Under the pieces are notes generated by a model. It was given only the letters and a program-made list of their open reading frames with translations, was not told the DNA's origin and did not search any database. Both the position numbers and the translations under genes were made by a program. From a virus (taxonomy: Duplodnaviria; Heunggongvirae; Uroviricota; Caudoviricetes): a DNA stretch of 23,462 bases. Where the stretch lies: IMG/VR virus record IMGVR_UViG_2698536369_000027, positions 1 to 23,462 of that record; one strand, written 5' to 3'. Below, piece by piece: positions 463 through 9,600 of the stretch. How positions within the stretch are numbered: the stretch's first letter is position 1; every line of letters begins with the position of its first letter.

Positions 463-2679
463 CTACACTTCCCACCATCCTTGTGCTCCTGACATCTTGA
501 TAAATGTTTTTGACCATCCATTTCCTGTTTTTGTTTCCGTGCCAACACTTAGAGGCACTATTCTATTTTCGGATGCTGTACTGCTAAATATAAACGTAAC
601 ACTAGAGGATAAAGATACTCCGCGTATCACCACTCTGTCTCCGGGCTTACCTCCTGTGATTGTGTCAATGCTTTTAGTTGCGGACGATATCCATACATTG
701 CCATGCGAGAATGGAAGTACTGATCCAGTCAATGACTCAAGGGGTTTTGATGGGCATGGCTCACCATAGATTTGTGGGTCGTTTACACCTGCTGGAATAA
801 GCAGTGTGGAGTTATACTTATTACCTGATCCATAAAGAGTTGGCTCAGTTGCTCCGCTCCATGTAATAGGGTAATGAGCAACAGATTTCATAGTAAAATC
901 GTTATCACGCAACCTTAAAATGCACGCCTGAGCATTGATATACGTTAAGGCACCGCTGTTTGCCATCGCGTCAAACCAGTTGCTTCTGAATGTGGCGTCA
1001 GCGTTGTTGAAAACAACAACCGGGTCGAGTTGAGATGCTGCTGATGAACCCCAGAGATGCGCCTTGAAGGTGCAGTTTTGTACCTTCATTCCTTTGACAC
1101 TTCCTATGCGCATGAACTGGAAGCAGTTTTTTAGAATAACGCCATCAACAATAATTGCCCCATCAGAGAAGAATGAAGGGTTTATTGCTGGTTGGGCATG
1201 TAACCCACGAAATGCCGAGTCGATGTTACCGCCTAAAATATGAACCTTGCCCATATTACCGAAAATTCGGTAAGCAGTACTCAAGTCAACTTTAGTTGAC
1301 TGCACCTCGCAGTTGATAAACATAAACGTGTGATCGAAGTTTGACCATGAAGGTAGCGGGTCGCCAGTGGAGCCGTCTTTGTCGGTGGTAATAATCTGGA
1401 CGCTGGAGTTAGCGTATACAGTGTCATCGCTGAACTTAATCTTCATGTTTTCGAAGATAACGTTCTGCGAATAACGCGTAATTCCACGGTCTCCAGAGTA
1501 GCAATAACAAGCTGACTTCGTGTTGTAGGCTGTGATGTTGAGAAAATACGCGTTGTAGCATGATGCCACTCGCCACCATCCATCACAGGTAGACACGTTT
1601 TCTACATTAAACCGCTCGACATGAATATTGTAAGGATGCAAACCATTTGTCATGGTTGAGTTTGTTGCTGGGTTTTCCGGTGCCAGACCATACTCAAAGT
1701 TACATCCAAATTTCCAAGGCCCTCCACTTATCAGGCAGTCATGCAGTCTAATGCCATCTAATTCCCCCATTCCGCAAACAACAAACCCATTGTTTAAACC
1801 TTTCCCTGTAACATTATAAATTCTGTCAATCTCAACGTCACTGGTCATTGCACTTCCAAGATATTGACCACCGACCCAAATCATTACAGTTTGAGGCGCT
1901 GATGGATTGCTGGCGGTTGCATCTGCCCTTGTTTCTGCAACGTCATATACAAAGTTGGATATGCGGACTTTTTTTGAATTGTAAACGACGAAAGTATGGT
2001 TCGCGCGACCACCTGATGTAGGAATAAACCCTTGGACGTTATCCATTATCTTCGCGCCATTGAAGTTCAGCGTGATATTACTGACTCCAATGCATTGCAC
2101 GGTGCCGGTAAGGAGATACGTACTGGATGGATTGCCAATAAACTCCACACCCACGCCGCTGTAGGTGGTGATGGCGGTGTTTAGCGCTGCAGAGCTATCA
2201 AGAACACCCGACTTATCTACGCCCGGCAGATCGTCGATAAACATGAATACACGATCAAGGTATTGCGTGAGATTAACGCCGCCCTTGGTACCAATCAGGT
2301 TTGTTCCTGGAGGGTCAAATGAAGCTAATTGCTGACTGAACTGATCAGGATCATACTTCAGCACATTAGGGAAATAGAATTGCCGCGCCCCATACGCATC
2401 ATAAACAGCCATAGAATGGCCTTGCTCAGTTACGAACTTGGTAATCTGTCCATTATATACAGGGTAACCAGCAGCGTTAATGATGATTGGTTGCGAAACA
2501 GGAACGTGAGAGCCGTCTTCGTTTTCCACATAAACCTGAATCTGGTTTTCAGGATTTACCGGGTCAGTATCAATTTTTCCGATATAAATTTTGCCATTGG
2601 CTACGGCTTTAAAAGAACGCGCCATAGTGAAGAGTTGCGAAGGCATCGATACGATCACATTGGCTGTAATGTCTGTCAT
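463..2679 (-). CDS. Tailspike protein with P22 gp9-like N-terminal head-binding domain and a divergent receptor-binding domain
   Basis: 738-aa ORF; first ~110 aa ([13 protein letters not shown]...[33 protein letters not shown]...VLKYDPDQ) match the P22 tailspike N-terminus from memory; remainder is different and longer than P22 (667 aa). Confidence 0.9.
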
Positions 2680-2780: not shown

Positions 2781-3671
2781 TCAGTAGTTATGTACTGAAG
2801 GAGGTAATTCTTTATTCTTAAGTCTCATCCATGCGGAACGATTCGTTGGTCCGTCTGGCTCATTAATATCAACATCTAGTGTGTGATTGATTAAAACGTC
2901 TCTCGCTATATCGATAATACGGGAGAACTCATAACCGCAGTCATGACATCTGCCGGAATAGTTCGATTGAATTTGTTTCAGCGCCGGATACAATTCGCGG
3001 AATAATGCCTGTGAGCGGTTGGCATAATCCCATAACCATACAAGGCTGTTTGCTTCTTTTGCAGAAAGCTCGTTGGTTTTCTTCTCTTGTTTGCCGATAA
3101 ATTCACCTTCAAGCACTACCCTGTGGATGTACTCTACGGCCAGCGGGATTTGTTCAATTGAAAGTTCATCAATGCTGTCAATACCAAAACGCTGATGAAC
3201 CATATTGTATGCATCGTCATAGCGAAGTCCTTTCTTTCCTACCAGCATGTTTACTGCATCGCGTAGCGGTGTGCGTTCAGCTACTGAAGTTTTACCGCCA
3301 ATACTCTTCCTCTCTTGTGTGGCAGTAACCATTGCGTCATATGCACGGATAACCTTCAGCGCAAATGCTGCGCTAATCCACATGGCGTAGGAGTAAACAA
3401 GCTCCTTGCACACGTAGGTTCCACCATATCGACCTTTCTTAGAAAGGACGGGATTCTTATTCTGCATATCCGCAGAATTAAAAATTTCATTAATCAATTC
3501 AATAGTTTCATTTCTACGCATGAAGAAAGCTGGCTGATGTTTTTCCTCCTTTCCAGACGCTACATGAAGGTCATTAAGCGAGTAACGACCCTCTGAATCC
3601 ATATGAATCTTGACGTCAGAAATGATGATGCTATTAGTGCAATTTACAGTTGACTTTGCTAAGCTTGACAT
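2781..3671 (-). CDS. KilA-N domain antirepressor-like protein (in the ant position of an immI region)
   Basis: ORF to stop at 2781; N-terminal region has KilA-N-like motifs (GRYSLNDL ... [29 protein letters not shown]); preferred start is ATG 3669-3671 with upstream GAGG; alternative GTG at 3735-3737 overlaps the upstream ORF stop. Confidence 0.65.
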
Positions 3672-3733
3672 ATCAATAATACCTCGTAAGTTTTGTTGAT
3701 ACCGAAGCCCTGACTGTTCCCGCAGTTGGGGCT

Positions 3734-3955
3734 TCACTGTTTTTGTAAGTCACTGTAGCTATAAAGCCACTGACCACTCATTTTTGATTTGATTGACTCT
3801 ACTGAGTCACGGCAAGGAATGATTCCGCCTGACATCATTCTGATCTCCGTAAATTCACCACTCCTTATCGATTCAATGCCATCAATGTTAACTAAAGATT
3901 TACCTCTACCAAGTGCATTCTCATAGCCAATCTCATCAACCTCAATAAACCTCAT
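3734..3955 (-). CDS. Hypothetical 73-aa protein, translationally coupled to arc
   Basis: ATG 3953-3955 overlaps the arc stop codon (ATGA-type overlap); its own stop overlaps the GTG of the downstream ORF; no recognisable domain. Confidence 0.5.
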
Positions 3956-4110
3956 GCCGTTATCCCCTCTCTCTTCAGGCTGTCCAACACTCGCTTGTAA
4001 ATCTCAGAGTTAACAGATCGCCCGTTCTCTTCAGCTACCTTGCGCACCAAATCCAATACTTCTTTAGGCCACCGCAAATTGAACTGCGGCATTTTGCTCA
4101 TTCCTTTCAT
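3952..4110 (-). CDS. arc: Arc transcriptional repressor (ribbon-helix-helix)
   Basis: Translation [52 protein letters not shown] is near-identical to P22 Arc (53 aa, from memory); ATG 4108-4110 preceded by GAGGTGA RBS; the longer ORF-track start at 4173 would read through its own operator. Confidence 0.9.
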   Translation of the reverse strand: MKGMSKMPQFNLRWPKEVLDLVRKVAEENGRSVNSEIYKRVLDSLKREGITA

Positions 4111-4123
4111 ATTCACCTCACAA

Positions 4124-4146
4124 TATGGGTCCACCGTGAACCTATT
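4124..4146 (-). promoter_or_regulatory. Mnt operator-like palindrome
   Basis: Minus-sense AGGTTCACGGTGGACCC, one mismatch from the P22 Mnt operator core GGTCCACGGTGGACC as I recall it; lies between the Pant -10 and the arc start. Confidence 0.6.
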
Positions 4147-4149
4147 GAG

Positions 4150-4178
4150 AATATAGTAGAGTGCTTCTATCATGTCAA
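4150..4178 (-). promoter_or_regulatory. Pant-like promoter with embedded Arc operator
   Basis: Minus-sense TTGACA - 17 nt - TATATT; the spacer plus flanks read ATGATAGAAGCACTCTACTAT, which matches the 21-bp P22 Arc operator from memory. Confidence 0.75.
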
Positions 4179-4200
4179 TACACTAACTTGGGGTGATGGC

Positions 4201-4455
4201 ATGGCTAGAGACGATCCGCACTTTAACTTCCGTATGCCTTTGGAAGTAAGAGAAAAATTGAAATTAAGAGCAGAGGCTAACGGAAGGTCAATGAACTCTG
4301 AGTTATTACAAATCGTTCAGGATGCTCTCTCAAAGCCATCATCAATTGTAGGCTATCGAGACGAAGCTGAGCGAGTCGCGGATGAGCAATCTGACGTTGT
4401 TAAGAAGATGGTCTTTGAAACGCTGAAAAATATTTATAGCAAAAGTAAGTTATAG
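4201..4455 (+). CDS. mnt: Mnt repressor (maintenance of lysogeny; represses Pant)
   Basis: 84-aa translation MARDDPHFNFRMPLEVREKLKLRAEANGRSMNSELLQIVQDALSKP... is near-identical to P22 Mnt from memory; divergent from arc. Confidence 0.9.
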   Translation: MARDDPHFNFRMPLEVREKLKLRAEANGRSMNSELLQIVQDALSKPSSIVGYRDEAERVADEQSDVVKKMVFETLKNIYSKSKL

Positions 4456-4504
4456 GCTTATGACGTACAGTTAACCATATCGATATTGGCTCGCGTGATG
4501 ACAA

Positions 4505-5224
4505 ATGAAAAAAAGCAATGGACTCACATTAAAACTTGACGGAACCACCCCTGGCCAGCTGTCAATGGCTAAGTTGGTCAAGTATATGTCTGCTCTCGTA
4601 GATCTATACGGTTCTGCAGATTCTGTTCACTTCGACTGTGTAAGTGAAGGATCGGCTGACTTAAATGCATGGGTCGATAATGATATTTGTTATAACGCTG
4701 TCATAGCAAGGGCCTCTCTCTCAGCCAAAGAGAAATCACCCGCGTATCAAAAAATTGTTAATTTACTGGAACATGATGGTTTTTCAGCGAAACTACTCGG
4801 ACGAAACCACTCAACCATTATCGCATTCCCGCGAGTAAAAAAGGAGCCAATCCCTTTACTCATAACAAAAACATCAGAAGTTCAAGGAAGGCTATACAGT
4901 GTTGGCGGAAAAGACAACTCAATACCTGTGCGTATTGAGGGAGCCAACGGTGAAACATTCAAGTGCGAGGCAACCCCTGATTTGGCGGCAGCTCTTGGGT
5001 CCCATCTATTCAAATATATTAGGGTTAAAGGAGATGGGTGCTGGGAAAAAAAGAACAACAAATGGGAGCTAAAGAAACTAAAAATAACTTCATTTGTATT
5101 GCTCAAAAAATCATCACTCAAGGATGCTATTAATGCTATCAAGCAAGTTCCTGGAGATCAGTGGTCCGAGGAACGCGATGTTGATTCAATCCTTAGGACT
5201 CTGAGGAAGATAAATTGCGAGTAA
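4505..5224 (+). CDS. Hypothetical 239-aa protein, first gene of the cargo cassette and partner of the PIN nuclease
   Basis: ATG at 4505 is the first start codon after an in-frame stop; no Walker A, HEPN or other motif seen; AT-rich with K-rich C-terminal third; stop overlaps the downstream PIN gene by 10 nt. Confidence 0.6.
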   Translation: MKKSNGLTLKLDGTTPGQLSMAKLVKYMSALVDLYGSADSVHFDCVSEGSADLNAWVDNDICYNAVIARASLSAKEKSPAYQKIVNLLEHDGFSAKLLGRNHSTIIAFPRVKKEPIPLLITKTSEVQGRLYSVGGKDNSIPVRIEGANGETFKCEATPDLAAALGSHLFKYIRVKGDGCWEKKNNKWELKKLKITSFVLLKKSSLKDAINAIKQVPGDQWSEERDVDSILRTLRKINCE

Positions 5225-5763
5225 TTTTAGATACCAATATTCTGGTATACCTACTATCAGATATAGAACACGATTATAGATTATCTGACCCTATACTTGG
5301 TTCTGAGATTCCAGATGCCAAAAGAAGAGCAGAAGCTCTTGTTGATCGAATAGATAACAAGAACGGGACAATCATCGTTCCAACTCCTGTATTGGCGGAG
5401 TTTTTAGTTGGAATCCATAAAGATTACCAACAAGAAAAACTGAATGTTATCAAATCGTTATCGTGCTTCGAAACTGTATCATTTGATGAGTTGGCTGCTA
5501 TTGAATGCGCATCGATACCAACATTAAAAGAATTAAGGAAAATTAGCACAGAAGGTACAGCAAACAAAATTAAGTTTGACAGACAAATAATAGCAATTGC
5601 AAGAGCAATTAATGCTGACGAGGTATGGACTCATGATAAGGGAGTGTTTGAGCGTTGCAAAAGTCTCAATATTCCTGTGTTCACATTATCATCAATAGAA
5701 CCAATTCCGGTTCAAAGTCTCATGGAGTTCTTACACGATTCAGACGATCAGAGATTACACTAA
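5215..5763 (+). CDS. PIN-domain nuclease (VapC-like fold, 182 aa)
   Basis: TTG start at 5215 with GAGGAAGA RBS 5-7 nt upstream; N-terminus RVILDTNILV is a classic PIN beta1 motif; candidate acidic residues D6, E62 (LAEFLVG), D122 (KFDRQIIAIARA), D141 (WTHDKG). Confidence 0.7.
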   Translation: MRVILDTNILVYLLSDIEHDYRLSDPILGSEIPDAKRRAEALVDRIDNKNGTIIVPTPVLAEFLVGIHKDYQQEKLNVIKSLSCFETVSFDELAAIECASIPTLKELRKISTEGTANKIKFDRQIIAIARAINADEVWTHDKGVFERCKSLNIPVFTLSSIEPIPVQSLMEFLHDSDDQRLH

Positions 5764-5890
5764 AATATAATTTTTATGCATCCGTGATAATTACATCCGT
5801 CACTGATACATAAAGCTATAGCCAAAAGTGGACAAACCTTTATCTCACTCCAAACCATCTGGTATCCTGCTAAAAACTAAGGAGGTTGGT

Positions 5891-6280
5891 GTGAAGCAAT
5901 TTCTTGCTGCTATGTTCTTATTCATATCTTTTGGGGCTACAGCAGAGTGCTGGGTCGTTGGAGATATGCGCGGAATAAGCTATTCAGAACGAAATAATTT
6001 CCATCCGGAAGAAGATGGTTTTAGTGGAACATTCATCATTAAGACAAGCGGTGAAGATGCCAGCATCACATATTCTGGGACAGATGCGGGTGGCATGGCT
6101 TACAAAGCATTGTCTAAAAACTCCATCATAGGAATCGGCGCGAATGGCGAAACTCAACGCGTTATCGACTCATGGGTAATACATCCTACTGGAACAGTTT
6201 TAATGTCAAAAACCATTTCCGGTTATGGAAATATGGATTCAACCAAAGCTTTTGTTGGAAAAGTAAAAAGAAAATGTTAG
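5891..6280 (+). CDS. Small exported protein with N-terminal Sec-type signal peptide (~129 aa)
   Basis: GTG at 5891 preceded by AGGAGG with 5-nt spacing; N-terminus VKQFLAAMFLFISFGATAE is a hydrophobic signal peptide with a likely A-x-A-type cleavage site; the ORF-track start at 5828 is GTG without an RBS. Confidence 0.6.
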   Translation: MKQFLAAMFLFISFGATAECWVVGDMRGISYSERNNFHPEEDGFSGTFIIKTSGEDASITYSGTDAGGMAYKALSKNSIIGIGANGETQRVIDSWVIHPTGTVLMSKTISGYGNMDSTKAFVGKVKRKC

Positions 6281-6304
6281 CGATTGAATCCAATTTCCCA
6301 TACG

Positions 6305-8215
6305 TTACTGCTGTGTTGCCTCAGTAACAAACAGCGGCCTGACGGCATTTGCAGCGTTACTTAACGCTCTTTCATAGGCTGGCGTTCCAGCTTTAGTGTT
6401 TGCCAGACGCAAGAGCGCATTCCTTGCTGCTTTGGACTCGTACAAGCGCATGATTGCACCGAAACCAGCTTCAAGCGCCAGTGTTGCCCCAAGAGTCGCA
6501 GTTGCGCCAATCGTTCTAATCCTGTTAGCTTGCGATTGTCCTGTCTGTGTTACTACATTTGCGGCGTCCGACCTTGCTGTTTGCTGTAGAACTTCATGAA
6601 GAGCATCAAGCTCTTTCATGTGTCTCCCACTGAATATCGTGTTATAGATCTGACCGTCAGATTGCGACTTCAACTTATTTAACTCGGTAAGAAATTTTGT
6701 TGGCGAGTCTCCTGCTTTTTCTGCAATCTTGCTAATATAAGCAGCACGCATAGCGTTCTTTCCATCTTCACTAAGAGCAGGCCATATCCTCTTAATATCT
6801 GATGGTTTTCTGCTGAATACAACACTGTTTATTAGCTCTGGAGTAAACTCTTTTTTAGCTTTGTTGAGATTATTCGCAATCCTTTTATTGAGAACTTTAT
6901 TGAAAACGTTGGAGTAGTCAGAGTTTGCTTTGACGTATCTGGCGGCCTCTCCAGCCCCCAAATACCGCGCTGCGTTATTCCTCAAATCTGCCCCCATTGC
7001 CCTCTCCACGGCATCAGTTGCGGCTTTCGCGCTATTAGGAAAAACCATGGCATCTCCCTGAATACTTTCCCTCAAGGCTGACCGCAACTCTCTCAATAGA
7101 CCAAAATCTATATCTGGTTTAGCAAGTTCTTCTCGCAAATCGGATAACCCGCGAATCAAATCCTTATTTGCCACTTTCCCAAGCCTGTTAGCTCTGGTAA
7201 GTACGTTGTCGATAACCTTAATAGATTTTGATGTGTCAACAGGTGTGTCTCCCATTTTGGTTGTAATGTCTTCAATAACGCTTCCGGCCGAATCCTTCCT
7301 TGACTTCAGAGAACCATACAGATCGTCAACAACAACTGATGGGCTATATTCACCATATTTCTCAAGCTGTTTTTTAACTAGCTGACTTCTTTTTGCATAC
7401 TGCTCCGCTCGCTTTGAGCCTGTCCCGAGCAAAGCCCCCTCGGCATCCTGAGTAAGGCCGCGAGTGAAAGCATTTTTCGGCGGGATAACATCAGATGTCA
7501 TTGGTGTCACGCCCATCGATTCTGATGTGGCAATTTTCTTCGCCACTTCTGGTGCAATATCACCTTTAAAGGCAGTTATTCCACGCTCAAGCCCTTTTGC
7601 AACAGTATTAACAGCACCACCTGTTAGCATGCCAACACCTATATCTGTTGCCAGTTTTCCCGCATCATTTTTCTCACTGTTTGCGGCGAGCGATCCGACT
7701 GCGTTTTCTGCCAGAAGACGGGCTGCGCCTTGAGTAATTCGACCAGCAAGTGTTGGCGCCTGAGTTGAAGCACCGCCAACGCCAACAGTAGCCAGGTAAG
7801 GCAATGCCTCCGCAAACACCCTACCTTCTGTCGTTTGTGGAGTCAGAGCACCTTGCTGAAGTCCAAACGCCTGCTCTAATCCCTGAGTTGTTACTCGTGG
7901 CGCTGGTTGATATGTTCCATCACCAATACCGAGTTTACCGCCAGCCCATGCTGCCGCGCTTGTTACAGCATCGGCAACTGATGCCGGTATGTTTGCCACG
8001 TTTACGCCAGCCTGCACCAGTCCGCGACCAGTCTCTTTTACTGCCTCGCCAAGGTCAGACATAAATCCATCTTGCTGTTCTAAAGGCTGCTCTTGATTCT
8101 GAGTTGGTGGATTACTGGAAGACAGCATCCTAGCAATGCGGCGCGCGCCATCAGTATCACCTGCAGCATCAGCATTCCTTAACGCCGTCATCAATTGTTC
8201 ACGACTATAGGCCAT
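6305..8215 (-). CDS. 16: Ejection (injection) protein, P22 gp16-like
   Basis: 636-aa ORF in the conserved P22 order 7-20-16; start overlaps the gp20 stop; Ala/Gly-rich as in P22 E-proteins. Confidence 0.8.
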   Translation of the reverse strand: MAYSREQLMTALRNADAAGDTDGARRIARMLSSSNPPTQNQEQPLEQQDGFMSDLGEAVKETGRGLVQAGVNVANIPASVADAVTSAAAWAGGKLGIGDGTYQPAPRVTTQGLEQAFGLQQGALTPQTTEGRVFAEALPYLATVGVGGASTQAPTLAGRITQGAARLLAENAVGSLAANSEKNDAGKLATDIGVGMLTGGAVNTVAKGLERGITAFKGDIAPEVAKKIATSESMGVTPMTSDVIPPKNAFTRGLTQDAEGALLGTGSKRAEQYAKRSQLVKKQLEKYGEYSPSVVVDDLYGSLKSRKDSAGSVIEDITTKMGDTPVDTSKSIKVIDNVLTRANRLGKVANKDLIRGLSDLREELAKPDIDFGLLRELRSALRESIQGDAMVFPNSAKAATDAVERAMGADLRNNAARYLGAGEAARYVKANSDYSNVFNKVLNKRIANNLNKAKKEFTPELINSVVFSRKPSDIKRIWPALSEDGKNAMRAAYISKIAEKAGDSPTKFLTELNKLKSQSDGQIYNTIFSGRHMKELDALHEVLQQTARSDAANVVTQTGQSQANRIRTIGATATLGATLALEAGFGAIMRLYESKAARNALLRLANTKAGTPAYERALSNAANAVRPLFVTEATQQ

Positions 8216-9600
8216 TACTGCCCTCCGAGATATTTGCTAATTAATTCGTCATCGGACAATTGCTGTTGAGGTTGGCTATCGCCATAACTTGAGGAAAGAA
8301 AACGTTTTGCCGCAGAGTTCAATGATTCACCCTTCTTAACATCCATCCCCATGATGTTTCGGTTGCGATCAGATTGTCCTGGGCTGCCATTTGCACTCAT
8401 CCACTCTGACCTAAACTCGTTGAACTTCGCGTTATTACTTTCCATTTTTGCCATACCCCTTAACCATCGAGCCATGACCATTGGATTATCCGTTTCGCTT
8501 GGAATGCCTTTCCTTGCAAACTCAATATCCTTATCTGATGCAGGGCCGGGAGGGAGAAGCTTGGTTGCCTGCGCATTGGCTAGTTGGTTGAATCTAATCC
8601 GCATATCTCGGAGGTAGTTATCTTGCCCCGTAAGCTTAGTGAACATATTTTCAGCGTTACCGAACAAACCAGGAGTTGGCTTCTCCTTCTCCAGCGTGTC
8701 AGCAAGCGTTGTCATTGAATCGGCAGCATTACGACTAGCTGCCGCATCACCTGCTGATTTTTCTATAGCCTTTTCCATGTTCACGGATAGTTTTGGCGCA
8801 GCATTAATAAGTTCATCGGCCTTCTTTTGTGCCTGTTGTACTTCAAAACCGCATTTCTGCTTATCAAGTGCCAGTCTTTCTGCTGCAAGTCCGTGCCCAG
8901 TCATTGCTGACTGATAGGAAAGGTTTTGCCCTCTCGCCTGAAGTGCTTCACCAGCCTGATTGCTGCGGATTGTCTCTGCCAGCCTGCCTCGGTCAATTTC
9001 ACGACCAGCCATCTTATCCTGAACAGCAAACGCCTTTTCTGGTCCAAGCGCACCGAGAGACATAGTAGTCAGCATGTGTGATAGCTGCTCTGGATTCTGG
9101 ATACCTGTCTGAATCATCCAGTCAGCATTAGCACCAACGCGATTTAACCTGTCCTTGTTGTCAGTAATGAATTTACTGTAGGCTTCCGGTCCCTGAGAAA
9201 GAGCGACGTTAGCCCTCATGGCTAAATCGCCCATATCGTTGCGTTGCTGATCATTAAGACCTGAAAACGCCTGTTGTGCCTGTGCAACAAACGCTGGATT
9301 TTCCTGGGCAAACTTAAATAGTCCCGATGGATCACCAGAAGCCCATGCATCAGCGTGAACCTTATTGAACGCACTAATCGCTTTCTGTTGCTGTTCCTGC
9401 TTATAAATATCAGCAACTCCAGCCAGACCACGTAACGCGGTCAGACCAACGTTATTTGCACCTGAGCGAGCCAGTTCATTGTTTTCGCGGATCAGACCAA
9501 GCGTTGCGTTAATGTCGCTTGCCTTTGGCGCATTCTCATTTTGCGTACCGATGCCAGCCAGAAAACCACCAGAATTAATACCCTGTTGCCACGTAGCCAT
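8215..9600 (-). CDS. 20: Ejection protein, P22 gp20-like
   Basis: 461-aa ORF (P22 gp20 is about 471 aa), position between gp7 and gp16 homologues. Confidence 0.8.

What the first reader, a model, noticed from the sequence alone, without database searches (positions are those of the whole stretch)
5779..6280. Small exported protein as third gene of the cargo cassette
The best start is the GTG at 5891 with AGGAGG 5 nt upstream, giving about 129 aa. The N-terminus VKQFLAAMFLFISFGATAE has the look of a Sec signal peptide and the mature part is Gly/Ser/Thr-rich with no lipobox. A periplasmic protein encoded beside the ejection-protein genes is a plausible superinfection-exclusion or lysogenic-conversion factor. 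Upstream at about 5779-5808 are imperfect direct repeats (CATCCGTGATA / CATCCGTCACTGATA) that might form an operator.
Basis: partly seen in the sequence, partly recalled or inferred. Interest (0 to 1): 0.5.

Follow-up and report, generated by a model that had tools for sequence, protein, structure and literature searches.

The report
Exported Hex-like protein replacing sieA
This small gene in a P22-like prophage is real, encodes a secreted periplasmic beta-barrel protein distantly related to the phage 434 Hex exclusion protein, and starts at the same codon that the exclusion gene sieA uses in P22, so it is most likely another way for a prophage to keep rival phages out.

Summary
The ORF is real. 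It starts at GTG 5891, with AGGAGG 5 nt upstream, and encodes 129 aa under purifying selection (dN/dS 0.14). It has a canonical Sec signal (ATA|ECW, no lipobox) and a 111-aa mature part with two invariant cysteines. AlphaFold (pLDDT 88) folds it as a small closed beta-barrel.

It has no Pfam, NCBIfam or PADLOC match. It falls in PHROG 2651 together with Sf6 gp38 and phage 434 Hex ("heterologous exclusion" of P22): 27% identity end to end.

The 34 bp before and including the GTG (5860-5893) match the P22 sieA leader. In 125 loci, 12 unrelated ORF families, including SieA, start at that same GTG. The gene is therefore an allelic replacement of sieA, convergent with ejection gene 16.

It is not the third gene of the PIN cassette. 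That cassette (4505-5763), with the "operator" repeats, is a separate module that never accompanies this gene in the other 21 loci examined. The repeats are no more than chance would give.

The most likely function is a prophage-expressed periplasmic superinfection-exclusion factor. This is inferred, not shown.

By-product: the published stable Hex fragment begins exactly at the predicted signal-peptidase site. This calls the cytoplasmic RecA model for Hex into question.

The parts
5860..5893 (+). Conserved 34-bp leader (GGTATCCTGCTAAAAACTAAGGAGGTTGGTGTG). It holds the Shine-Dalgarno AGGAGG (5880-5885) and the GTG start (5891-5893). It is the same leader and start codon as P22 sieA.
   Evidence: 94% identical to P22 over exactly 5860-5893, an isolated island of homology that ends at the GTG. 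The pattern occurs in at least 120 IMG/VR contigs. Twelve unrelated ORF families start at this GTG.
5891..6280 (+). Hex-like ORF: 129 codons plus TAG stop.
   Evidence: PHROG 2651 at 9e-61. 27% identity end to end to 434 Hex, E 4e-12. dN/dS 0.14 over the mature part.
5891..5944 (+). Signal peptide, codons 1-18 (M/V-KQFLAAMFLFISFGATA). Predicted signal peptidase I cleavage after Ala18 (A-T-A|E).
   Evidence: The n+/h/c architecture, with small residues at -3/-1 one residue before the invariant Cys, is seen in 26 of 27 aligned members. In the wider family 121 of 123 representatives have the hydrophobic core. The AF2 model shows helix 2-15 at lower pLDDT. The N-terminus of 434 sHex, E43, is the homologous position.
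5945..6277 (+). Mature 111-aa protein, predicted to be a small closed beta-barrel. The invariant Cys20 (5948-5950) and Cys129 (6275-6277) lie in the first and last strands.
6305..8215 (-). Gene 16-type DNA ejection (transfer) protein, convergent with the ORF, 24 nt between the stop codons. It forms the 3' flank of the slot.
   Evidence: Emek 'DNA transfer protein'; PF26808 Phage_P22_gp16 in a sister locus. The same gp16 C-terminal type flanks SieA, Hex-like and three other slot families.
4201..4455 (+). mnt (Arc/Mnt repressor), on the same strand. It is the probable source of prophage-state transcription reading towards the ORF.
   Evidence: PF03869 and PF11423. No convincing intrinsic terminator on the + strand between 4455 and 5891. 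In sister prophages the Hex-like gene sits directly in an mnt-Rap1a-hex operon.
4505..5763 (+). Separate two-gene module: a 239-aa unknown (phrog_19868) plus a 182-aa PIN-domain protein, overlapping by 10 nt. It is NOT part of the Hex-like gene's unit.
   Evidence: The module is found upstream of three other slot ORF families and upstream of none of the 21 other Hex-like loci.
5773..5814 (.). This is the 3' tail of the PIN cassette module.

Best explanation
The ORF 5891-6280 is a genuine prophage accessory gene.

Shown or strongly supported:
- It is translated from the same leader, SD and GTG that P22 uses for sieA.
- It belongs to the phage 434 Hex / Sf6 gp38 family.
- The features expected of an exported, oxidised periplasmic protein are present.
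- It occupies the sieA slot.

Predicted from the sequence:
- The product is exported by Sec and cleaved by signal peptidase I after Ala18.
- It folds in the periplasm into a roughly 12-kDa closed beta-barrel, stitched by a Cys20-Cys129 disulfide between its first and last strands.

Inferred:
- It is expressed from the prophage, either by read-through from the mnt promoter or from signals in or near the conserved leader.
- It acts as a superinfection-exclusion factor. From the periplasm it interferes with the envelope-crossing DNA-delivery step of incoming phages. For P22-like phages that step is the gp7/gp20/gp16 trans-periplasmic conduit. It would be the functional counterpart of the inner-membrane SieA that it replaces.
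- The exact target is unknown.
For: 1. Real gene and start.
- Strong SD at 5 nt.
- Homologues with ATG at the equivalent codon.
- dN/dS 0.14.
- Present in 147 E. coli genomes.

2. Export.
- All 27 aligned members have a signal-peptide architecture, and 26 of the 27 also have the AxA-type (-3/-1) site one residue before the invariant Cys. This holds although the signal sequences themselves are unrelated.
- Of 123 wider-family representatives, 121 have the hydrophobic core and 115 have an even number of mature cysteines, 2 or 4.
- No TM segment in the mature part.
- The experimentally determined N-terminus of the stable 434 Hex fragment (E43 of the 158-aa numbering) is exactly the predicted mature N-terminus.

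3. Family.
- PHROG 2651 is hit at 9e-61 by the window protein and at about 1e-58 by Sf6 gp38 and 434 Hex.
- BLASTP gives 27% identity end to end, E 4e-12.
- Hex was named for exclusion of P22 by imm434 lysogens (PMC3564112).

4. Slot.
- P22 sieA lies convergent to gene 16 behind the same leader and GTG.
- SieA and Hex-like ORFs alternate between the same flanks.
- SieA blocks DNA injection, and escape mutations map to gp16 and gp20 (PMC10883804).

5. Every context seen for the family is a prophage or mobile-element cargo position. Two of them are positions expressed from the prophage:
- directly behind the cI repressor with a 4-nt overlap;
- in the mnt operon or sieA slot.
- The third context is the edge of an integrase/resolvase-bearing island in Aeromonas.
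Against: - No exclusion phenotype has been measured for this subfamily.
- Identity to Hex is only 27%.
- The only biochemical study of Hex proposes a cytoplasmic role, inhibition of RecA-stimulated repressor cleavage. It gives no information on where Hex acts in exclusion.
- I could not read the original Susskind and Botstein paper. Whether Hex exclusion is an entry block or an abortive infection is therefore unknown to me.
- The fold is a generic 8-stranded barrel and does not point to a target.
- No promoter was convincingly identified upstream in this window.
Confidence: 0.55

Rival explanations
1. A periplasmic host-fitness or immunity factor not aimed at phages. Examples would be an inhibitor of a lysozyme or peptidoglycan hydrolase, an inhibitor of a type VI amidase effector, or a small-ligand-binding barrel, carried as a lysogenic-conversion gene.
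For: - In sister prophages the gene lies directly after a Rap1a/Tai-family immunity-like gene in the mnt operon.
Against: - No Pfam, NCBIfam or PDB sequence match to any inhibitor or immunity family.
- The structural hits are generic.
- The one genetic phenotype attached to the family (Hex) is phage exclusion.
- The slot is that of sieA.
Confidence: 0.2
2. A lysogeny stabiliser that works like the published Hex model: the protein, or a fragment of it, stays in the cytoplasm and protects the prophage repressor from RecA-stimulated autocleavage.
For: - Shkilnyj et al. 2013 (PMC3564112): deletion of hex raises spontaneous induction 30-fold in recA+ cells only.
- In the same study a 61-aa Hex fragment blocks 434 and P22 repressor cleavage in vitro.
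Against: - Signal peptide and paired cysteines are conserved family-wide.
- The paper used an upstream AUG (158-aa ORF) that no homologue shares. Its fragment starts at the predicted signal-peptidase site.
- Full-length Hex was toxic on overexpression.
- Here the gene is unlinked to any repressor gene and replaces sieA.
- A deletion overlapping the 3' end of cI could act in cis on repressor expression (my inference).
Confidence: 0.08
3. An outer-membrane 8-stranded beta-barrel of the Lom/Ail/OmpX/PagP type, conferring a surface phenotype such as serum resistance, adhesion or receptor masking.
For: - One phage record labels the homologue 'PagP' (H17).
Against: - The mature protein has only 111 aa.
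- Four of the nine strands are 4-6 residues long.
- No C-terminal aromatic beta-signal: only 1 of 27 members has an aromatic residue in the last 3.
- The mature part is hydrophilic, GRAVY -0.31.
- The conserved N-to-C cysteine pair is typical of soluble periplasmic proteins.
Confidence: 0.05
4. One reading: the ORF is the third gene of one three-gene cargo cassette with the 239-aa protein and the PIN protein, regulated through the CATCCGT repeats.
For: - Same strand and close spacing: 127 nt between the PIN stop codon and the GTG.
- No strong terminator between them, so co-transcription in this particular prophage is possible.
Against: - The PIN cassette plus repeats occurs upstream of three other unrelated slot ORFs and upstream of none of 21 other Hex-like loci.
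- No complete E. coli genome has the two together (no record covers 80% or more of 4150-6400).
- The repeats are not above chance.
Confidence: 0.05

Closest known systems
Phage 434 Hex (heterologous exclusion; 'repressor protection protein' in OL657227), identical in type to Sf6 gene 38 protein; PHROG 2651
   Same: - Same PHROG.
- End-to-end alignment at 27% identity.
- Same length class.
- Same signal peptide followed by x-C-W at the mature N-terminus, and same C-terminal Cys.
- Same invariant residues: W95, K107, G123.
- Both are carried at loci expressed from the prophage.
   Different: - Hex lies directly behind the cI repressor with a 4-nt overlap, transcribed from PRM. The window gene lies in the sieA slot between mnt and gene 16.
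- The two are distinct subfamilies, 25-32% identical.
- The published Hex mechanism is cytoplasmic inhibition of RecA-stimulated cleavage. That is hard to reconcile with the export signals found here.
- No phenotype is known for the window subfamily.
P22 SieA (superinfection exclusion A)
   Same: - Identical genomic slot and orientation: convergent with gene 16, about 22-24 nt between the stop codons.
- Identical 34-bp leader, SD and GTG start.
- The two alternate as alleles between the same flanks.
- Both are envelope proteins of a prophage.
   Different: - No sequence similarity.
- SieA is a 164-aa protein with four TM-like segments and the motif FxRYPxEAxxFNK. The window protein has a single cleavable N-terminal hydrophobic segment and lacks the motif.
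- SieA sits in the inner membrane. The window protein is predicted to be soluble in the periplasm.
Other small envelope-located prophage exclusion proteins (T5 Llp, phi80/N15 Cor, HK97 gp15, TP-J34 Ltp, T4 Imm/Sp); known to me from the literature, some cited in PMC10883804 and PMC11436027
   Same: All are small prophage- or phage-encoded proteins targeted to the envelope that stop entry of incoming phage DNA.
   Different: - No sequence relationship was detected (no Pfam, PADLOC or PDB sequence hit).
- Llp, Cor and Ltp are lipoproteins. HK97 gp15, Imm and SieA are membrane proteins. This protein has neither a lipobox nor a TM anchor.

Membership tests
Hex / Sf6 gp38 family (PHROG 2651) | Significant full-length sequence or profile similarity to Hex | tested here: met
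   PHROG 2651 at 9.2e-61 for the window protein, 6.7e-59 for Sf6 gp38 and 1.4e-58 for 434 Hex. BLASTP E 4e-12 over residues 1-129. tblastn against phages at 1e-4 to 2e-5.
Hex / Sf6 gp38 family (PHROG 2651) | Shared invariant residues and architecture (signal peptide, x-C-W start, C-terminal Cys) | tested here: met
   Ten invariant columns in the 27-sequence alignment, including C20, W21, W95, K107, G123 and C129. Signal architecture in all 27 members, with the -3/-1 cleavage-site rule met in 26 of them.
Hex / Sf6 gp38 family (PHROG 2651) | Location immediately downstream of, and co-transcribed with, the cI-type repressor | tested here: not met
   The window gene lies between mnt/PIN and gene 16, with no repressor adjacent. 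The Hex branch always overlaps a 210-aa HTH+S24 repressor by 4 nt.
Hex / Sf6 gp38 family (PHROG 2651) | Exclusion of a heterologous phage (P22) by the lysogen | not testable with these tools
   Needs plating or DNA-entry assays. The phenotype is known only for 434 hex (PMC3564112).
SieA family (types A/B/C) | Sequence similarity, including the motif FxRYPxEAxxFNK | tested here: not met
   It forms a separate BLASTP cluster at E 1e-5 in the slot census. The motif is absent.
SieA family (types A/B/C) | Polytopic inner-membrane protein | tested here: not met
   SieA has 4 TM-like windows. The window protein has only the N-terminal signal segment; the highest 19-residue hydropathy in the mature part is 0.77.
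SieA family (types A/B/C) | Position between gene 16 and gene 9 of a P22-like prophage, convergent with gene 16 | tested here: met
Sec / signal peptidase I exported proteins | Positive n-region, hydrophobic h-region of about 10-15 residues, small residues at -3 and -1 | tested here: met
   K2; h-region with maximum 8-residue hydropathy 2.9; A-T-A|E. This was a home-made rule check only. SignalP and DeepTMHMM were not available.
Bacterial lipoproteins | Lipobox [LVI][ASTVI][GAS]C at the cleavage site | tested here: not met
   The sequence is G-A-T-A-E-C, with Glu directly before Cys. Only 6 of 123 family representatives are lipobox-compatible.
Outer-membrane 8-stranded barrels (OmpX/Ail/Lom/PagP/NspA) | C-terminal aromatic beta-signal, strands long enough to span the membrane, hydrophobic exterior | tested here: not met
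MliC/PliC-type periplasmic lysozyme inhibitors | Match to the MliC family profile or to solved MliC/PliC/PhiA sequences | tested here: not met

The most novel reading that the evidence does not exclude
The Hex family (PHROG 2651) would be a widespread class of soluble, disulfide-bonded periplasmic superinfection-exclusion proteins. They would block assembly or function of the trans-periplasmic DNA conduit of incoming podoviruses. This would be a soluble periplasmic mode of exclusion, distinct from the inner-membrane SieA and from the lipoprotein receptor blockers.

If so, the published cytoplasmic 'repressor protection' mechanism of 434 Hex would be an artefact of a mis-assigned start codon and of expressing a signal-less fragment.

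In addition, the 34-bp sieA leader would be a dedicated cassette-exchange site at which P22-like phages swap at least 12 unrelated envelope-targeted exclusion genes.
Probability: 0.3. Interest if true: 0.7.

Novelty: new member of a known kind. Interest (0 to 1): 0.5.

Why it matters
**An uncharacterised family gets a testable hypothesis.** Every E. coli record listed labels the gene 'hypothetical protein'. It is present in 147 of 5426 (2.7%) complete E. coli genomes. The wider family has 189 clusters at 50% identity. The hypothesis is periplasmic superinfection exclusion.

**Two classical systems are linked.** As far as I could find, 434 hex and P22 sieA had not been connected before.

**A published mechanism should be re-examined.** Hex carries a cleavable signal peptide, and its 'mysterious' stable fragment starts at the predicted signal-peptidase site.

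**A possible source of new exclusion genes.** The sieA start codon is a shared entry point for at least 12 unrelated small proteins, most of them with an N-terminal hydrophobic (membrane or export) segment. That is a ready-made catalogue of candidate anti-phage genes aimed at P22-like ejection proteins.

**An annotation problem.** RefSeq start-codon calls (MHGISY..., MFLFISFG...) hide the signal peptide.

Tried and rejected
- **Family libraries.** Pfam, NCBIfam and PADLOC scans of the protein gave nothing.
- **Solved structures by sequence.** A PDB profile search gave nothing better than E 1.5.
- **Fold searches.**
  - Foldseek against PDB gave no hit below E 1e-3.
  - Foldseek against BFVD gave one uncharacterised phage protein at 6.5e-4.
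- **Promoter scan.** It found only a 9/12 match at 5739-5766, within chance expectation: 7 found against 5.8 expected. The conserved leader does contain TGGTATCCT, which resembles an extended -10 element. That is my reading only and is unverified.
- **Operator idea for the repeats.** Rejected on statistics and on co-occurrence.
- **Genome-wide context scan.** The scan of genome contigs with the family profile returned only 3 loci, because the back-translated pattern was too narrow.
- **Internal ATG at codon 8** (5912, the start used by PGAP in some genomes). Rejected. It removes the charged n-region, lacks an SD, and ignores the shared GTG used by sieA and by homologues that have ATG at that position.
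- **Not done.** I did not attempt complex prediction with ejection proteins, because the tool is single-chain only. I could not measure the Cys-Cys distance, because the model coordinates were not exposed.

Full report
**Setting**

The window is the late region of a P22-like (Lederbergvirus-type) prophage, read in reverse orientation. The relevant genes are:
- tailspike, 463-2679 (-)
- ant, 2781-3737 (-)
- a 73-aa ORF, 3734-3955 (-)
- arc, 3952-4173 (-)
- mnt, 4201-4455 (+)
- a 239-aa unknown, 4505-5224 (+)
- a PIN-domain protein, 5215-5763 (+)
- the ORF in question, 5891-6280 (+)
- convergent ejection-protein genes 16 (6305-8215), 20 (8215-9600) and 7

**The observation**

Direct reading confirms the following:
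- GTG at 5891-5893.
- AGGAGG at 5880-5885, 5 nt upstream.
- 129 codons and a TAG stop at 6278-6280.
- The N-terminus V(M)KQFLAAMFLFISFGATAE.
- A mature part that is 32% Gly+Ser+Thr.
- The sequence around the first Cys is A-T-A-E-C, so there is no lipobox.

The ORF is a real gene:
- It hits PHROG 2651 at 9e-61.
- It is 98.5% identical to orf129 of Salmonella phage Emek.
- It is present in 147 of 5426 complete E. coli genomes. Every record listed there labels it 'hypothetical protein', and all 149 places are chromosomal.
- Against a diverged allele, its mature part has 11 synonymous and 6 non-synonymous differences, dN/dS 0.14.

Homologues with ATG at the codon equivalent to GTG 5891 (MKRLIAGMFLF..., MERFLAGVFLF..., MKLIIAMAF...) support that start. 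The internal ATG at codon 8, which PGAP uses in some genomes, is not supported.

**Export**

I aligned 27 family members (A2). In every one:
- The first roughly 18-28 residues have a basic n-region and a hydrophobic core with 8-residue hydropathy of 2.0-3.6.
- The mature part has exactly two cysteines.

In 26 of the 27, small residues sit at -3/-1 exactly one residue before an invariant Cys-Trp. The signal segments are not conserved in sequence. Between the window and the allele in L138 that segment is saturated with substitutions, while the mature part is 95% identical. Selection is therefore keeping the property rather than the sequence.

A profile search of 1.84 billion representatives found 189 relatives, nearly all single-domain proteins of 120-140 aa. 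Among 123 full-length representatives:
- 121 have the hydrophobic core.
- 115 have an even number of mature cysteines, 2 or 4.
- Only 6 are lipobox-compatible.

The mature window protein has no TM-like segment and GRAVY -0.31.

AlphaFold2 on the family alignment gives pLDDT 88.4 and pTM 0.77. The model has a low-confidence N-terminal helix (residues 2-15) followed by nine strands. The two invariant cysteines lie in the first and last strands. I therefore infer a barrel-closing disulfide. I could not measure it.

**Fold**

- Foldseek against the PDB finds nothing below E 1e-3.
- BFVD gives one uncharacterised phage protein.

The fold is a small closed beta-barrel and does not name a function. 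An outer-membrane barrel is unlikely for three reasons. The mature protein has only 111 residues. Four of its strands are only 4-6 residues long. It has no C-terminal aromatic signal.

**Family**

tblastn against phage genomes found full-length 27% matches. The targets were Sf6 gene 38, HK446, HK633, Sf101 and the phage 434 gene annotated 'repressor protection protein'. Sf6 gp38 and the 434 protein hit the same PHROG 2651 at about 1e-58. The pairwise BLASTP E-value is 4e-12 over the whole length.

The 434 gene is hex. Shkilnyj et al. (PMC3564112) recount that imm434 lysogens of Salmonella exclude P22 and that hex mutants do not; the name stands for 'heterologous exclusion'.

In this branch the gene always follows a 210-aa HTH+S24 repressor with a 4-nt overlap. 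I saw this in lambdoid prophages of E. coli, Shigella, Klebsiella and Enterobacter.

**The slot**

In P22, sieA lies convergent with gene 16, 22 nt beyond it. Its annotated GTG start is preceded by CATGGTATCCTGCACAAAACTAAGGAGGTTGGTGTG. The window has GGTATCCTGCTAAAAACTAAGGAGGTTGGTGTG at 5861-5893. Against P22 this is an isolated 34-bp island of 94% identity that ends exactly at the start codon.

The pattern occurs in at least 120 IMG/VR contigs. I read the ORF from the shared GTG in 125 loci. It falls into 12 mutually unrelated families:

| Slot family | Loci |
|---|---|
| 107/109-aa, N-terminal TM plus coiled coil | 23 |
| Hex-like, 129 aa (including the window) | 22 |
| A second 109-aa type | 13 |
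| SieA, 164 aa | 12 |
| 75-aa two-TM protein | 11 |
| Seven smaller families | 2-9 each |

One and the same gene-16 C-terminal type flanks SieA (9 loci), Hex-like (20), and three other families. The Hex-like ORF is therefore an allelic replacement of sieA between conserved flanks.

[quoted passage not shown] Escape mutations map to the C-termini of gp16 and gp20. Only 22 of 66 P22-like phages carry sieA (PMC10883804). That paper does not mention Hex. The variability of this 'ant moron' region in general was already described (PMC2629481).

**Not a three-gene cassette**

- Homology to Emek and to many E. coli prophages begins only at about 5856-5860.
- The mnt-orf239-PIN block (to 5855) occurs upstream of three other slot families (L005; L050, L059, L072, L108; L122). 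It occurs upstream of none of the other 21 Hex-like loci.
- No complete E. coli genome covers 80% or more of 4150-6400.
- The hexamer is at chance frequency, and the hairpin is weak at z = -2.1.

A second architecture exists. In it a Hex-like allele with another signal peptide (MKLIIAMAFF...) and its own SD follows mnt and a Rap1a/Tai-family gene in one operon.

**Expression**

No convincing promoter was found directly upstream. No + strand terminator was predicted between mnt and the ORF, so read-through from the mnt promoter is the simplest route here.

In P22, 85 bp upstream of the GTG sufficed for sieA function (PMC10883804). Only the proximal 34 bp are shared with the window.

**Mechanism**

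Shown or strongly supported:
- The gene is real.
- It belongs to the Hex family.
- Export features are conserved across the family.
- It occupies the sieA slot.

Inferred:
- The protein is released into the periplasm and oxidised.
- It is made in the lysogen.
- It excludes superinfecting phages at the envelope-crossing step, plausibly by binding a component of the gp7/gp20/gp16 conduit.

The target is unknown, and the exclusion phenotype has not been tested for this subfamily.

**By-product concerning Hex**

- The paper's 158-aa ORF starts at an upstream AUG inside cI that no homologue shares. The family start is the ATG that overlaps the cI stop (ATGA) and gives 134 aa.
- Residue 43 of the 158-aa numbering is Glu and residue 103 is Asn, as the paper states.
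- The unexplained stable fragment 'sHex' (E43-N103, 6.8 kDa) therefore begins exactly at the predicted signal-peptidase site ANS|ECW.
- The paper never mentions a signal peptide, membrane or periplasm.
- It reports that full-length Hex is toxic on overexpression.

A periplasmic Hex is hard to reconcile with direct protection of the repressor from RecA. Library searches found no paper making this point.

**Verdict**

The gene is a new, divergent member of the Hex family sitting in the sieA slot. Interest is moderate. The gene itself is common and its function is still only inferred. The links hex-sieA-periplasm and the shared-start-codon cassette site can both be tested directly.

Noticed in passing
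window 5860-5893; loci L004-L127: The 34-bp sieA leader, SD and GTG is a shared entry point. In 125 loci, 12 unrelated ORF families begin at the very same GTG. By inspection of the representative sequences, most carry an N-terminal hydrophobic (TM or signal-like) segment. About 10 unrelated upstream sequences join the leader at ...CAT(CT)|GGTATCC. On the opposite strand, CAT is often the start codon of a divergent gene whose SD (AGGA) lies inside the leader, so the leader acts as a bidirectional translation-initiation linker and a probable recombination site.
   Followed up: partly
L002 2429-2905 (phage 434 hex); PMC3564112: The published 158-aa Hex ORF uses an upstream AUG that no homologue shares. 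The stable fragment sHex (E43-N103) starts exactly at the predicted signal-peptidase I site of the 134-aa form (ANS|ECW). Hex is probably a secreted protein, which conflicts with the proposed cytoplasmic inhibition of RecA-stimulated repressor cleavage.
   Followed up: partly
window 4505-5763: A two-gene module: a 239-aa protein with no Pfam match (phrog_19868) and a 182-aa PIN-domain protein (PF01850, 4e-10), overlapping by 10 nt. It moves as a unit between mnt and the sieA leader in several prophages. It has no PADLOC hit. It is a candidate toxin-antitoxin or anti-phage pair with an unusually large partner protein.
   Followed up: partly
L006 1803-2138; L138-L140 5650-5985: In sister prophages a Rap1a/Tai-family (type VI amidase immunity-like) gene with its own signal peptide overlaps the mnt stop codon and precedes the Hex-like gene. 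The mnt operon there carries two periplasmic proteins.
   Followed up: no
L006 2229-2543; L007 3053-3421: RefSeq (PGAP) start calls for this gene are truncated (MHGISY..., 104 aa; MFLFISFG..., 122 aa). This removes or cripples the signal peptide in the annotation.
   Followed up: yes
window 3734-3955 (-): An extra 73-aa ORF (phrog_11805, function unknown; orf73 in Emek) lies between arc and ant. In P22, arc is followed directly by ant with the antisense sar RNA at the junction.
   Followed up: no
L128-L130 (Aeromonas caviae); L137; L141 (Cellvibrio MAG); L142 (Edwardsiella ictaluri): Family members also occur outside Enterobacteriaceae. The Aeromonas copies lie next to resolvase or integrase genes in two loci and a KilA-N gene in the third; a fourth, L137 (unidentified metagenome contig), sits next to a resolvase gene. 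This suggests cargo of other mobile elements. Contexts of the Cellvibrio and Edwardsiella copies were not examined.
   Followed up: no
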